A DNA stretch of 64,000 nucleotides, taken from the NCBI GenBank assembly GCA_020722505.1, contig DYKR01000001.1, positions 40,407-104,406 of the forward strand, given 5' to 3'. The notes below the pieces were generated by a model. The model was not told the DNA's origin, ran no database searches, and saw nothing but the letters and a program-made list of their open reading frames with translations. Positions 5,650-36,256 of the stretch are shown here, one piece after another. Position numbers and translations under genes: made by a program. Every line of letters starts with the position of its first letter. Within the stretch, counting starts at the first letter, position 1. This DNA is from Caldisericum exile (GTDB lineage Bacteria; Caldisericota; Caldisericia; Caldisericales; Caldisericaceae).

Positions 5650-7206
5650 TTAGAATCTAATATTATAAACTAGTAAAAATGCAAGTATCTGTAGTATGTA
5701 TTTACTTACAACTTCAGGAGGAGTTGTGTCTATTTCGATTTCTATTGTCTGGGTTAATTCCTTTACAGCCTCAACGATTCTTCCGGCAATAACCTCTGAA
5801 ACTGGTCTTGAAAAAGCCTTCTCTTTACGTATTCTATTGAAAGCTACCGAATAGATGGCATTTTCATCTTTGAAATTTTTCAAGAAAATATCCTCAAGCA
5901 GTTCAAGGGATACTTGGGCAATGTCGTTTTTCTCAGTTTCAGGCATAGGAGGCAGTGCTGCAAGTGCCTGACTTAAAAACTGCCTAATTGCAAGAGAAAC
6001 TTTTTGCACATCATTAACATTCTGTAAGCTTTGTCTCAACGGTTCAACCATAGAGTAAGCTTTGTATACAATAAAAGTAATATAGCCAAGGTAACTATCT
6101 ACGTTCAAAAGACGTTTAATCTGTTCCATTGAAACAACTCTTATTGCTCTCTCCATTCCAGATGTTCCTAAGATATTCAACATCTCCTTAGTAATCACGT
6201 ATAACATATCAAACAGGTCATAACTTTCAGCATAACCAACGTATAAGTTTAAGTTTTTCGCATCTATTCTATCTATCACTTGTCCATGATTTTGAAAATT
6301 CCACACAAGAGTATGGGCAGTTTGTGAAGCAATAACAGACCTCTCTCTTTCTGGCTTATCTTTAAACATATACCTATAGAGGAAATTGTACGCATACTGT
6401 TCACCTGTTGTTAACGCTCTGTAGCACATATTAACAACAGTTGGATTGATCTGTTGAACTATTGGAACTAAATAACTCATAGCAGTATTCATGGCAATAT
6501 CCACTGCATCCTCTTTTTTAATCAACGTGCTTTGGGTAATTCCTTGAGACATTTTCATTGCAAGAGGGAAAAAATCTGTCACAAACTTGCCATAGAGTTG
6601 TAAAAACGGATAATAACCTTCTAATGCAGAAATTTGGAGCTTTTCAATGAGAGGGTGCTCCATCTGCATATCAAGAGGACCAATTTCCGACTGGGCTCCC
6701 ATGATAATCTCATCTGCTGCTAAAGTCATAAGAGTTGCAGCACTCTTCGCAAATAAAGGCACTACTGCTTTTAGCTTTTTGCATCTTGAACGGATAATGT
6801 TCATCATTTGGTAGGCAGGATGTGGATACCCACCATTAGAAAGAACTACCATATCAATTCTTGTCTTTTCAGGTGGAGTTTGAATTTTGTTTAACTGATC
6901 TATTAGATCAAAAACATCATCTCTGTCAATAGGCGCAAATTGGTTGTAAATCATAAAAAGAATATATCTATTCTCTATTTTCTCTTCTTGTGTAAAAGGA
7001 GGAATTGGGGTTTGCAATGGGAGTTGTTCTTTTGTTTCCTTTGATTCACCAACCTCCTCTTCTTCTTTTTGCTCGGCTTCTTTTTGCTCGGTGTCTTTTT
7101 TCTCTTCGTTGTCTTTTAAAGTCCCTTCAAAGTCTTTGTCTTCTCTACCTTCATGGTGCTCAGGTTGTTCATCATTTGAAAAATCGTCTTTTTTACTGAT
7201 GTCCAT
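5650..7206 (-). CDS. SDH-family Clp-fold serine protease with acidic N-tail and C-terminal extension
   Basis: 'LSNGG', 'VPLFAKSAATLMTLAADEIIMG..SEIGPLD', 'HGQVI'; SD GGAGG. Confidence 0.8.
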   Translation of the reverse strand: MDISKKDDFSNDEQPEHHEGREDKDFEGTLKDNEEKKDTEQKEAEQKEEEEVGESKETKEQLPLQTPIPPFTQEEKIENRYILFMIYNQFAPIDRDDVFDLIDQLNKIQTPPEKTRIDMVVLSNGGYPHPAYQMMNIIRSRCKKLKAVVPLFAKSAATLMTLAADEIIMGAQSEIGPLDMQMEHPLIEKLQISALEGYYPFLQLYGKFVTDFFPLAMKMSQGITQSTLIKKEDAVDIAMNTAMSYLVPIVQQINPTVVNMCYRALTTGEQYAYNFLYRYMFKDKPERERSVIASQTAHTLVWNFQNHGQVIDRIDAKNLNLYVGYAESYDLFDMLYVITKEMLNILGTSGMERAIRVVSMEQIKRLLNVDSYLGYITFIVYKAYSMVEPLRQSLQNVNDVQKVSLAIRQFLSQALAALPPMPETEKNDIAQVSLELLEDIFLKNFKDENAIYSVAFNRIRKEKAFSRPVSEVIAGRIVEAVKELTQTIEIEIDTTPPEVVSKYILQILAFLLVYNIRF

Positions 7207-32999: not shown

Positions 33000-33457
33000 A
33001 TAAAAGTATTATTGATGAACTTGAAGATTTAAAAGAGCTGGTCGAAAAGGCAAAAAAACTCCCCTTTTCAAAATACATTACCATTGATAAAGAAGAACTC
33101 TTAGGGATCATCCTAAGAATAGAAGCAATGCTTCCAGAAGAAGTAAAAACTGCTTCAAGTATCTCCAAACAAAAAGAAATGATTTTAAAAGATGCTTACG
33201 AAGAAAAAAATCGCATAATAAAAGAAGCTGAAAGTGAATTTAAAAAAATGGTAGAAGAATCAAAGATTGTTGAAGAAGCACGAAAAGAAAGAAAGCGGAT
33301 AATAGAAGAAGCTGAAGAAGAAGCAAGAAAAATAAAAGAAGAAGCATTAGTATTTGCAAAAGATCTTTTTGCAAAAATTGAGAGTGTTCTTAACAAAGCC
33401 CAAAACACTTTACAAGAAGGGAAAGAAGCGATAGAAAATGAAATTAATAATAAATAA
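32996..33457 (+). CDS. Coiled-coil protein (SepIVA/DivIVA-like) found between coaD and DUF177
   Basis: 'IDELEDL.ELVEKAKKLPFS', 'LPEEVK.A', E/K/A-rich coiled coil; gene position. Confidence 0.7.
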   Translation: MNKSIIDELEDLKELVEKAKKLPFSKYITIDKEELLGIILRIEAMLPEEVKTASSISKQKEMILKDAYEEKNRIIKEAESEFKKMVEESKIVEEARKERKRIIEEAEEEARKIKEEALVFAKDLFAKIESVLNKAQNTLQEGKEAIENEINNK

Positions 33458-33860
33458 GATCATAGAAGAAGGTTCAATTACCGTTGAAGAAAGTATTAAT
33501 TTTAAAGAAGAAGAACTTCCCTTTAAGTTAAATGATGATGCAAAACTTAAACTTACTTTTGAACATGTGCAAAATAGGGAGATAAGAGTATATGGCGCTA
33601 TTGAAGCAACATTTATACTAACTTGCGTTGTGTGTCTCAACGAATTTGAGTATCCTATAAAAATCGAAGTTGACGAATTTTATAGCCCAAGAGAATTTTT
33701 TGACTATTCTAAGGAAGAACGACCTATTGAAGAATTGAATAAATTTACTTATACAACAAACTATCTTGACACAAAAGATATCGTAAGAGATAATCTCTTA
33801 GAGGTGCTTCCACCATACCCAAAATGTCCAAAATGCTCATTAGAAACTTCAGAAAATTGA
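33438..33860 (+). CDS. DUF177/YceD family protein
   Basis: 'CVVCL', 'LDTKDIVRDNLL..LP.YPKCPKC'. Confidence 0.85.
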   Translation: MKLIINKIIEEGSITVEESINFKEEELPFKLNDDAKLKLTFEHVQNREIRVYGAIEATFILTCVVCLNEFEYPIKIEVDEFYSPREFFDYSKEERPIEELNKFTYTTNYLDTKDIVRDNLLEVLPPYPKCPKCSLETSEN

Positions 33861-33873
33861 ATATAATAAAAAT

Positions 33874-33971
33874 CAAATAGCCCAAAATCCCGCCTGCTGA
33901 GGTTGGGCAAGAAAACGGCGGTAAAAAATACCTCAGCCTCAATCGTTGTTGATTGAGAGAAAAGAGAAAAT
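33874..33971 (+). ncRNA. Candidate structured cis-regulatory leader of asnS (interlocked pseudoknot plus hairpin)
   Basis: GC-rich island: GCCCAA/TTGGGC, CCGCC/GGCGG, GCTGAGG/CCTCAGC, CTCAATC/GATTGAG; TATAAT at 33862-67. Confidence 0.5.
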
Positions 33972-35255
33972 ATGTACATTAACGAAGCTAAAGACAATGT
34001 TAATAACTACGTTGAGGTAAAAGGTTGGGTTTACAATATGCGAGAAAGCGGAAAAGTGATTTTTATTTTAGTAAGAGATGGTAGCGGAATAATGCAAAGT
34101 GTAGTATCTAAAAACGATGTAGATGAGAAAGTTTTTGAAGATGCAAAAAAATTAACTCAAGAGTCTTCAATCGTTGTAAGGGGTATTGTGCGTGAAGATA
34201 AAAGAGCCCCGTTTGGCTACGAGTTGTTAGTTAAAGAACTTGAAATGCTACAACTAACCGAGAACTATCCAATTACTCCCAAAGAGCACGGAGTAGGTTT
34301 CTTGATGGAGCATAGACACCTCTGGTTGCGTTCAAAAAGACAGTGGGCAATTTTAAGAATTAGACACAGAATCGAAAAATCATTAAGAGATTTCTTTGAC
34401 TCAAGAGGCTTTACGCTTATAGATGCACCCATTCTAACACCTGCTGCATGCGAAGGAACAACAACACTTTTTGAGACTAACTATTTTGACGAGAAAGCAT
34501 ACCTTTCACAAAGTGGCCAACTATACATGGAAGCAGCAGCAATGGCATTCGGGAAAGTGTACTGTTTTGGGCCAACCTTTAGAGCCGAAAAGTCTAAAAC
34601 AAGAAGACACCTTATGGAATTTTGGATGCTTGAGCCTGAGGTTGCTTTTCTTACATTTGAAGAGAACTTAAAACTCCAAGAAGAAATGATTTACTATGTA
34701 GTGCAAGAAGTCCTTAAAAACTGTAAAATTGAGTTGGATATAATTGAGAGAGACACAAAAATGCTTGAAAAAGTAGTGCCACCTTTCCCAAGAATCCACT
34801 ACCGTGATGCAATTGAACTTTTAAATAAAAAGGGGGTTAATATAAAATACGGCGATGACTTCGGAGGAGACGAAGAGACTGTGCTTGCAAACGAATTTGA
34901 AAAGCCAGTTTTTGTGCACCATTTCCCAAAAGAAATAAAAGCCTTTTATATGCAACCTGATCCAGAAGATCCAGGCACAGTGTTCGCAGCAGACTTACTT
35001 GCACCAGAAGGTTATGGTGAAATTATCGGTGGAAGCGAAAGAATACACGATTACGATTTACTTTTACAGCGAATGAAGGAAAATAATCTTCCAATTGAAA
35101 ATTACCAGTGGTACCTTGACTTAAGAAGATATGGATCAGTTCCCCATAGTGGATTTGGCATCGGATTAGAAAGAACACTTGCATGGATTGCTAAACTTCC
35201 GCATGTAAGAGAAACAATTCCTTTCCCAAGATTACTTGAAAAAATATATCCATGA
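33972..35255 (+). CDS. asnS: Asparagine--tRNA ligase
   Basis: OB-fold N-terminus, 'HRHLWLRS', 'ACEGTT', 'LSQSGQLY', '[20 protein letters not shown]', '[19 protein letters not shown]'. Confidence 0.96.
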
Positions 35256-36256
35256 GGGAAGTATCTGCATTAGAACTATTAACCGAACTTGAGAGCACTC
35301 TCCCAAAAGAGCCGTTGTTGGTTCTTATGGGAGAGTCTCACTATTTAAAGGATCAAATTGTAAAAAAATATTCAGAAAAACTATTTGGTGGAGATATTTC
35401 AAGCCTTGATTTGATAAAAATTTCAGGATATGAATTCAATATAGGAGAATACACAAATATCGTCTCAACACCACCATTCTTAAATAATAAGTTGCTAATC
35501 ATAAAAGACGTGGAGGCAATTTCAAAACAGAACCTCCAAAAATTACTATCAACAAAAATTATTGACAATGTTAAGGTAATACTTATCTATGCAGGAAAAG
35601 AAGAAAACTTAGGGAAGGAAAATTTCATAATTGTTAAAGACTACACAGTGCCACAAACTCATATAGAAAAATGGATTGAAAAAAAAGCTAAAGATTATGG
35701 CAAACTTATTTCAAAAGAGGCAGTAAAAGAACTTATAAGTAGGCTTGATTCTAATCTATTTGAACTTTCAAACGAAATTAAAAAGCTTGCAATGTTCGTT
35801 GGCACAAAGAAAAGCATCGAGGAAGAAGATGTTAAAGAAATTGTGCAAAAGATGAAAGAGGAAGATATATTTGAATTTATAAACGCAGTCATCAACATGG
35901 AGAAAGATAAGGCAATGAAGCTTCTTGATTATTTTTTAAAGACTACAAGCCAAGAGAACATCATACTCTCACAGATTTTAAAAACATTCTCAATATACCT
36001 TATAACATACGATTTAAAAAAGGAGTCGAAAACACAAAAAGAAGTTAATGAATACATAGCAAGCCTTTTTGGCATTTTTCTTAAGAAAAGGACGCTTGAA
36101 GGTATTTATAGAAACCTTGAAAAAATAGATATAAAAACCCTTGTTAAACAATACAACGTATTAACAGATATCGATATAAAGTCAAAATCTGGAGAAGTCG
36201 AACCCAAAGAAGCCTTGCGCACCTTTATAGTCGAAAAGGTTACAAGGCAGTATTAA
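35252..36256 (+). CDS. holA: DNA polymerase III delta subunit
   Basis: 'VLMGESHYL', 'TPPFL..KLLIIKD', 'NEIKKL', 'DIFEFINA'; convergent with rpsT as is common. Confidence 0.85.

What the first reader, a model, noticed from the sequence alone, without database searches (positions are those of the whole stretch)
33874..33971. Interlocked three-helix pseudoknot in the asnS leader: candidate new regulatory RNA
Seen: GC-rich island with order A-B-C-A'-B'-C': A GCCCAA 33880-85 / TTGGGC 33903-08; B CCGCC 33890-94 / GGCGG 33917-21; C GCTGAGG 33896-902 / CCTCAGC 33931-37; A-rich linkers (AAGAAAAC, TAAAAAATA); then hairpin CTCAATC/GATTGAG 33938-57 overlapping the only weak SD-like GAGAG. It follows a TATAAT and is too short for a T-box. 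Inference: either a rare ABCABC pseudoknot, or an H-type aptamer (A+B) switching with helix C; possible effectors are AsnRS itself, tRNA-Asn, or a small ligand such as preQ1 (tRNA-Asn is a queuosine tRNA). I cannot match it to a family I know.
Basis: partly seen in the sequence, partly recalled or inferred. Interest (0 to 1): 0.75.

Follow-up and report, generated by a model that had tools for sequence, protein, structure and literature searches.

The report
Transposon-derived pseudoknot replacing ribosome-binding sites
The leader of this bacterium's asnS gene encodes a three-helix RNA knot with no Rfam match that also sits at the end of transposons inserted right behind ribosome-binding sites; here it is likely a transposon leftover, kept about 14 bases before the start codon because it would help ribosomes start translation.

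Summary
The three crossing helices are real: 0 of 5000 shuffles reach them, and 5 of 5 genus genomes keep them. They are not an asparagine-specific switch. The same fold sits in the right-end RNA of IS607/TnpB transposons, which insert directly after GGAGG (three empty sites checked) and so cut a host gene off from its Shine-Dalgarno, even before valS, thrS and gyrA. Copies stripped of transposon and guide parts persist before many unrelated genes. They occur in 82 of 121 Aquificota genomes, with 35 in one genome lacking this TnpB, many before ribosomal-protein genes. All 7 pairs of helix C covary. The start codon lies 12-18 nt after the closing hairpin in 53 of 62 orphan copies. At asnS the knot replaces the GGAGG found in 25 of 25 relatives outside the genus. 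Best reading (0.6): a transposon-borne translation-initiation module that softens the insertion's damage and was domesticated repeatedly. Function is untested, and about half of the orphans have a fair Shine-Dalgarno. I found no Rfam family and no paper on it in the library searched.

The parts
33438..33860 (+). upstream gene yceD (DUF177); its stop lies 19 nt before helix A
   Evidence: (PF02620)
33862..33867 (+). TATAAT, candidate -10 box of an asnS-holA promoter; no good -35
   Evidence: invariant in 5 of 5 genus genomes; not listed by the promoter scan
33880..33885 (+). helix A, 5' strand (5 conserved pairs, sixth only in G000/G004)
   Evidence: swap control
33886..33889 (+). linker 1 (AAU core, about 4 nt across the family)
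   Evidence: partly fixed by the search pattern
33890..33894 (+). helix B, 5' strand CCGCC
   Evidence: first pair CG in 114 and GC in 13 of 127 elements
33896..33902 (+). helix C, 5' strand
   Evidence: 7 of 7 pairs change on both sides
33903..33908 (+). helix A, 3' strand
33917..33921 (+). helix B, 3' strand GGCGG
33922..33930 (+). A-rich linker ending in AAAUA, predicted to lie in the minor groove of helix B
   Evidence: conservation; role inferred from H-type pseudoknot rules (recalled)
33931..33937 (+). helix C, 3' strand
   Evidence: G33902A with C33931T in G004 and in runs X4, X5
33938..33957 (+). hairpin D, directly abutting helix C; sequence and length free, fold kept
   Evidence: gap to C is 0 nt in 107 of 123 elements with a D call
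33958..33971 (+). 14-nt A-rich spacer without GGAGG
33972..35255 (+). asnS, asparagine-tRNA ligase (followed by overlapping holA 35252-36256)

Best explanation
The asnS leader carries a three-helix RNA pseudoknot plus hairpin that also forms part of the right end of IS607/TnpB transposons; it is likely the leftover of such an insertion and likely helps the ribosome start translation where the insertion removed the Shine-Dalgarno sequence. Shown: (1) the fold and its covariation; (2) the same module overlaps the 3' end of tnpB, between a nexus-like hairpin and the terminal ACCAGG; (3) these elements sit directly after GGAGG and a few bases before host start codons, including essential genes; (4) the module survives alone before many genes at a near-fixed 12-18 nt from hairpin D to the start codon; (5) at asnS it stands where relatives have GGAGG. 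Inferred: an ancestor of the genus took an insertion in the asnS Shine-Dalgarno, lost transposase, tnpB, nexus and terminus, and kept the module. Helices B, C and D would stack into a rod with A branching off. The rod would dock on the 30S subunit near the mRNA exit and set the AUG in the P site, alone or added to a weak Shine-Dalgarno. Origin about 0.9, translation role about 0.6.
For: Homologues at tnpB 3' ends in G003 (5 copies), G000:C1 and G013. TnpB-family hits and an IS607 transposase over cut-off upstream in L300. In the pattern scans 32 of 143 matches have helices A and C, and all 9 with tnpB upstream are among them. Empty sites of mglB, moaE and ilvE in sister genomes read GGAGG-spacer-ATG, with the element inserted after GGAGG. 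Left junction GGAGG in 24 of 29 calls for ACCAGG-type elements (my count; 2 of the 5 others are wrong calls). Elements precede valS, trpS, lysS, fabI, thrS, metG, gyrA and adk. GGAGG lies before asnS in 25 of 25 non-genus leaders and 0 of 5 genus leaders. Core identity in the genus is 0.88 against 0.58-0.60 at third codon positions of the flanks. Spacer 12-18 nt in 53 of 62 orphans and 46 of 50 IS copies, while D varies from 15 to 39 nt; 13-16 nt in 29 of 35 copies in G112. 31 of 66 orphans start within 25 nt of, or overlap, an upstream stop codon. G112 copies precede S11, S18, S20, S21, L25, L32, IF3, EF-Ts, RpoA and Rho. TnpB elements with the module have a host start within 13 nt of their end in 34 of 39 cases, those without it in 8 of 33. 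Five elements lack B and C yet keep nexus, A, D and terminus, so B/C look dispensable for the guide scaffold.
Against: No experiment and no RNA data. Only 33 of 62 orphans have a weak SD, and in G112 the SDs behind the module are not weaker than a noisy background (median -6.0 against -2.9 kcal/mol, p 0.07), so it is not simply an SD substitute. A 13-16 nt spacer could also come from deletion bias down to the clearance any ribosome needs, or be inherited from the insertion geometry. The 34/39 against 8/33 contrast rests on 4-5 independent changes on a quick tree. One lineage without the module still inserts at GGAGG (2 of 5 before a start). The asnS copy keeps no left end, nexus or ACCAGG, so its transposon origin is inferred from homology and position. 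The module may first have been a host element that the transposon captured.
Confidence: 0.6

Rival explanations
1. The module protects or sustains the downstream mRNA: a block to 5'-3' decay or to processing of the guide RNA, or an aid to read-through against Rho. It is kept for mRNA level, not for ribosome loading.
For: 24 of 66 orphans have a -10-like hexamer within 25 nt upstream, against 1 of 55 IS copies. RNase J is present in G002, G003 and G094. Hosts named are largely thermophiles. The compact knot resembles nuclease-resistant RNAs in kind (recalled).
Against: RNase J was not found in the two Aquificota genomes tested that hold orphans (G093, G098; completeness not given). 31 of 66 orphans sit tight behind an upstream gene. 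A stabiliser needs no narrow spacing to the AUG.
Confidence: 0.2
2. The module is a binding site for a trans factor (TnpB, a ribosomal protein or a small molecule) that represses or gates translation of whichever gene lies behind it.
For: B pairs 2-5 and the A-rich linkers are nearly invariant, as in a recognition surface. Many downstream genes encode the translation apparatus.
Against: 45 of the 82 Aquificota genomes with the module have no hit to this TnpB at E 1e-20 (my count); G002 and G004 have none either. The downstream genes share no pathway. No conserved alternative fold hides the start region.
Confidence: 0.1
3. Orphans are selfish or neutral remnants: short non-autonomous elements, or orphan guide RNAs maintained by TnpB in trans.
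For: Internal-deletion derivatives with both ends exist (L106-L108). 6 of 66 orphans keep ACCAGG. G112 copies share similar A helices.
Against: The asnS copies lack ends and nexus, so they could neither move nor form the canonical scaffold. 102 of 102 helix cells are paired in the genus. Loops vary while helices do not. Orthologous orphans persist across genomes (hpf, mreB, infC, rpsT).
Confidence: 0.06
4. One reading: an asnS-specific regulator sensing AsnRS, tRNA-Asn, asparagine or preQ1.
For: Conserved before asnS in 5 of 5 genus genomes. No T-box was found in the 4 genomes tested, so another control could exist.
Against: The same fold precedes unrelated genes and lies in transposons. No conserved GUU loop. 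No copy was reported at the AsnA-like, aspS or lysS loci fetched. No Rfam riboswitch match.
Confidence: 0.04

Closest known systems
TnpB omegaRNA/reRNA of IS607 and IS605 elements (10.1101/2023.11.20.567912 and PMC10711439, passages read)
   Same: The transposon copies have the described plan: right-end RNA overlapping tnpB, a first stem-loop able to pair with the scaffold's 3' end, further stem-loops, and GG at both junctions.
   Different: The middle stem-loop is expanded into three crossing helices. The asnS copy keeps only this domain and hairpin D, without nexus, terminus or tnpB. No translation role appears in the passages read.
RAGATH-18-derived reRNA of IS607 TnpB, ISFba1 (PMC11061315; section 10 and passages read)
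   Same: IS607 TnpB with an extra structured RNA domain and a purine-rich target motif (AGGAG or GAGGG).
   Different: Their RNA does not overlap tnpB, their TnpB is 387 aa (544 here), and their pseudoknots join other parts. The main text has no 'Shine' or 'ribosom'. No Rfam hit on our loci.
IStrons (PMC4227781 and 10.64898/2026.03.11.711047, passages read)
   Same: Same logic: an RNA module carried by an IS607/IS605 element makes insertions harmless to the host gene.
   Different: IStrons splice themselves out with a group I intron. Here there is no intron, the insertion is in the ribosome-binding site, and the proposed rescue is at initiation.
ABCABC (L-type) pseudoknots such as the E. coli alpha-operon S4 operator (recalled, not read)
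   Same: Mutually crossing helices near a start codon, in a translation context.
   Different: No Rfam match. That operator is a single-locus repressor site; this is a mobile multi-gene family lying wholly upstream of the start.
preQ1-I riboswitch and other H-type aptamers (recalled)
   Same: A 5-bp stem followed by an A-rich linker, then a second helix.
   Different: Third helix, variable junction bases, no link to queuosine genes, no Rfam match.

Membership tests
IS607 TnpB omegaRNA (the asnS copy) | lies at the 3' end of tnpB inside an IS right end | tested here: not met
   upstream gene is yceD; met by homologues L104, L105, L120, L147
IS607 TnpB omegaRNA (the asnS copy) | nexus stem-loop pairing with the scaffold 3' end | tested here: not met
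   absent at asnS. In IS copies 54 of 55 can pair at least 5 of 6 bases (best-window test on copies picked by these motifs, so partly circular). Loop CCAGGT goes with end ACCTGG in L326-L328
IS607 TnpB omegaRNA (the asnS copy) | right-end terminus ACCAGG followed by a guide | tested here: not met
   absent at asnS; present in 6 of 66 orphans
IS607 TnpB omegaRNA (the asnS copy) | bound by TnpB and guides DNA cleavage | not testable with these tools
   needs pull-down and cleavage assays
IS607 family (the carrier element) | serine-recombinase TnpA, tnpB, GG at both junctions | tested here: met
   NF033518 over cut-off in L300; TIGR01765 and TIGR01766 over cut-off, NF040570 below cut-off; junctions
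ABCABC pseudoknot | three mutually crossing helices supported by covariation | tested here: met
   C: 7 of 7 pairs change on both sides, 0 of 500 shuffles reach the score. A: at least 7 bp in 104 of 114 own pairings against 319 of 2248 swapped. B: one pair flips CG to GC in 13 of 127
ABCABC pseudoknot | all three helices formed at once | not testable with these tools
   linker lengths look compatible by recalled groove-crossing rules; long A goes with a short following linker, which is tight
RAGATH-18 reRNA | match to the family model | tested here: inconclusive
   no Rfam hit on 8 loci or at E 10 on one right end; my direct family search used the wrong accession (RF03100 is RAGATH-27)
IStron | group I intron inside the element | tested here: not met
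   no Rfam match at gathering score on L141, L147, L221, L308
T-box | RF00230 match, long leader with specifier and antiterminator | tested here: not met
   0 of 4 genomes hold any T-box; the intergenic region is 111 nt
preQ1-I riboswitch | Rfam match, invariant ligand-pairing C before the stem's 3' strand (recalled), queuosine-pathway genes | tested here: not met
   that base is C, A or T in the genus; unrelated downstream genes
thrS-type synthetase operator (recalled) | conserved anticodon-mimic loop, one gene only | tested here: not met
   GTT in the D loop only in G000 and G004; many genes
exoribonuclease-resistant RNA | stops a 5'-3' exonuclease | not testable with these tools
   RNase J found in 3 of 5 genomes tested

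The most novel reading that the evidence does not exclude
A natural bacterial IRES-like RNA: a compact triple pseudoknot that binds the 30S subunit by shape and places the start codon without Shine-Dalgarno pairing. IS607/TnpB transposons carry it so that they can home into the ribosome-binding sites of essential genes, and thermophiles have domesticated it dozens of times per genome, including for their own ribosomal proteins.
Probability: 0.35. Interest if true: 0.95.

Novelty: categorically new. Interest (0 to 1): 0.85.

Why it matters
It would be a second way, after IStron splicing, for a transposon to make its insertions harmless: target the Shine-Dalgarno and bring a replacement initiation signal. 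It would also be a clear case of repeated domestication of the RNA, not the protein, of a TnpB system. A family found in two thirds of the sampled Aquificota genomes, with up to 35 copies before core genes, has no Rfam match. It offers a portable RNA of about 80 nt for testing whether bacteria use structure-based ribosome recruitment, plus many natural examples of the ABCABC topology, which I recall as rare. Even if the function proves different, the family, its origin and its fixed position before start codons stand on the data shown.

Tried and rejected
Rfam scans of the window and homologues: nothing. BLAST of the leader in the own genome: one copy, misleading, because a second covaried copy was found by model. 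The exact pattern in 93 genomes of the phylum found only the 5 asnS copies. The first viral pattern scan gave 59 matches; none in the part's output that was shown was this motif (the middle of that output was cut). The metagenome scan gave 1 locus from 479 candidates. No TnpB relative in viral contigs, and none of 23 viral pattern matches had helices A and C. Sequencing runs: no RNA holder listed. tmRNA and RNase P RNA exist elsewhere in the 4 genomes tested, so this is not a reduced form of either. Leader peptide: no upstream frame is conserved (read). Terminator: none. The second ABCABC at window about 5930-5992 lies in a coding frame and is taken as chance. The genome scan returned 0 through an over-strict overlap rule and was redone. 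The structure strings of models R1 and R2 were out of register by 1 and 2 columns (noticed), so rest mostly on sequence. Hits fetched as loci were re-checked with a pairing descriptor; 5 of the 6 family-f3 loci were not recovered by it. The corrected model R3 repeated 82 of 121. One search is superseded, where the 7 unpaired B cells come from a one-column alignment shift. L207 passed the filter but looks like chance and was dropped afterwards. PDB: no relative of this TnpB and no close relative of the S18 or S11 of G112. Willkomm et al. 2005 on Aquifex small RNAs is not held.

Full report
Observation. No shuffle of 5000 reaches the 18-bp crossing arrangement. Loose ABCABC patterns do arise by chance in this genome (24 strand-hits), but only this one has the linker geometry. 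Rfam has no match. All 5 genomes of the genus keep the element before asnS, as does one metagenome locus. A named record, Caldisericum sp. AR60 (L246), has the same leader, which places the genus. In the genus 102 of 102 helix cells pair, with one compensatory change. Variants listed for four sequencing runs fall in loops and spacer or keep pairing. The core is 88% identical where third codon positions of the flanks are 58-60%. G-U pairs in D favour the plus strand.

What it is. A search with the G003 leader found a second copy in G002 and five 14-nt seeds in G003. All five seeds are the same fold with different helix sequences. Two lie at the end of a 544-aa TnpB-family gene and three in deletion derivatives. 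The own genome holds one more, at the end of a TnpB-like gene between moaD-like and moaE genes. A related element carries an IS607 transposase. The full right end reads: nexus-like hairpin, ABC knot, hairpin D, ACCAGG. This fits the described omegaRNA plan (10.1101/2023.11.20.567912 and PMC10711439, passages) with the middle stem-loop expanded. Left junctions read GGAGG in 24 of 29 calls. Empty sites of mglB, moaE and ilvE show GGAGG-spacer-ATG, with the element inserted after GGAGG. The element therefore separates a host gene from its Shine-Dalgarno and leaves only AGG. Yet copies stand before valS, trpS, lysS, fabI, thrS, metG, gyrA and adk.

Spread. A pattern scan of 9 of 64 parts of the genome collection gave 120 loci, and of viral contigs 23. 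32 of these 143 have helices A and C, one of them probably chance, and all 9 next to tnpB are among them. The records named are mostly Aquificota and thermophilic Bacillota, with single Brevinematia, Desulfurellales, Syntrophobacterales, Deltaproteobacteria and Micrarchaeia bins. Models find the module in 82 of 121 Aquificota genomes (repeated with the corrected model at E 1e-6), 21 of 40 in the class of G094 and 10 of 93 in the own phylum. The models behind searches had mis-registered pairs and worked mainly on sequence. By my count 45 of the 82 have no hit to this TnpB. G112, a single 1.5-Mb contig without such a hit, has 35 copies. They lie before S11, S18, S20, S21, L25, L32, IF3, EF-Ts, RpoA, Rho, two Hfq, Ndk, Ppa and others. 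Of 127 distinct elements, 55 have nexus and terminus, 66 are orphans without nexus and 6 have nexus only.

Structure. On 36 sequences all 7 pairs of C change on both sides and no shuffle of 500 reaches the score (related sequences inflate this control). A reaches 7 bp in 104 of 114 cores against 319 of 2248 swaps. B flips its outer pair in 13 of 127 and is otherwise invariant. That invariance is partly imposed by my patterns, but it also holds in elements picked by TnpB alone. D abuts C in 107 of 123. By recalled pseudoknot rules, B, C and D can stack with A branching at the B/C junction. Whether all form at once is untested.

How it most likely works. The asnS copy lacks nexus, terminus and tnpB, so it is not a member of the guide-RNA class. 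What it shares with the other orphans is position. The start codon lies 12-18 nt after D in 53 of 62 orphans and 46 of 50 IS copies with a called start, whatever the length of D. 31 of 66 orphans sit tight behind an upstream gene. GGAGG precedes asnS in 25 of 25 relatives outside the genus and in 0 of 5 inside. Among 77 TnpB loci, 5 were dropped for a missing 3' end or terminus. Of the rest, 34 of 39 with the module have a host start within 13 nt, against 8 of 33 without. On a quick tree of 74 proteins the label changes 4-5 times, and lineages with other ends lack the module. Five elements have lost B and C and keep a three-hairpin scaffold. I infer that B/C is an accessory for the host gene, most likely for initiation. 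Against this: about half of the orphans have a fair Shine-Dalgarno, and in G112 these are not weaker than a noisy background. The spacer could reflect minimal clearance, one lineage without the module still targets GGAGG, and there are no RNA data. mRNA protection is the main rival: 24 of 66 orphans follow a -10-like box, but RNase J was not found in two Aquificota genomes that hold orphans. The direction of first capture, host to transposon or the reverse, is open. For asnS a remnant of an insertion is the simpler reading.

What is known. Ten full-text searches of the held library showed no paper on this motif, on IS607 insertion into Shine-Dalgarno sequences, or on such pseudoknots in Aquificales; most hits were seen as listings only. 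Ren et al. report AGGAG and GAGGG target motifs for other IS607 TnpBs with a different RNA and never mention ribosomes in the main text (PMC11061315; section 10 and passages). The Aquificales ncRNA survey mentions pseudoknots only for tmRNA (PMC4227106, passages); I did not see its supplement of 99 candidates, which may list some loci. PMC2873773 names Aquifex only for tmRNA (passages). IStrons are the closest idea (PMC4227781 and 10.64898/2026.03.11.711047, passages). Willkomm et al. 2005 could not be read, and subscription journals are not covered, so an earlier description of the Aquifex copies is not excluded. The alpha-operon, preQ1, thrS and xrRNA features are recalled. Earlier findings of this scan hold no look-alike of the sequence.

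Verdict. Observation confirmed; interpretation partly supported. This is a widespread structured RNA with no Rfam match, linked to an IS607/TnpB right end, fixed before start codons, and probably a translation-initiation aid. Interest 0.85.

Noticed in passing
L006, L007, L009, L010, L014, L017-L019, L021, L022, the 35 nt before asnS: In 10 of 25 non-genus relatives a small CCC/GGG hairpin lies between GGAGG and the asnS start, stretching the spacing to 20-26 nt. It looks like structure-assisted initiation (recalled term).
   Followed up: partly
L330, L336-L355, L370, L371, L373 (G110, G119, G120, G122, G127, G129, G138, G197): Two sub-clades of this TnpB are flanked by terminal inverted repeats and, by eye in L350, L355, L371 and L373, 9-10 bp target duplications. 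TnpB appears to have moved into another transposon type and lost the knot.
   Followed up: partly
L326-L328: A lineage with left junction GGTGG and terminus ACCTGG has the matching change in the nexus loop: covariation of target, end and pseudoknot.
   Followed up: partly
L309-L311, L356, L357: Close relatives of L308 lack both strands of B and C, leaving A as a plain hairpin: natural deletion controls.
   Followed up: partly
G000:C1:528-2079 (L142): The own genome's element has no transposase and its TnpB lacks about 46 residues in the middle of the nuclease region, so it is probably non-autonomous and inactive. The insertion keeps the upstream gene's last codons and a stop.
   Followed up: partly
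L103:2659-2720 (G002), L116:1507-1568 (G017), L442-L444 (family f3): Independent orphan copies before an S66 peptidase, before formate-tetrahydrofolate ligase, and before an unnamed gene following a dnaX-like gene.
   Followed up: partly
L274: A copy in a contig labelled Micrarchaeia (archaea), with a good GGAGG; it could be a mis-binned contig.
   Followed up: no
L096-L099: The genus has an archaeal-type asparagine synthetase A-like gene directly after a glutamine-synthetase-like gene, without the element (the second name by eye).
   Followed up: partly
window 5930-5992, minus strand: A 19-bp ABCABC arrangement inside a 518-aa reading frame; taken as chance.
   Followed up: partly
G001, G003, G006, G015: No T-box found in any of 4 near-complete genomes.
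   Followed up: no
window 33766-33794: A near-consensus sigma-70 site (11 of 12) inside yceD could be a second promoter for asnS.
   Followed up: no
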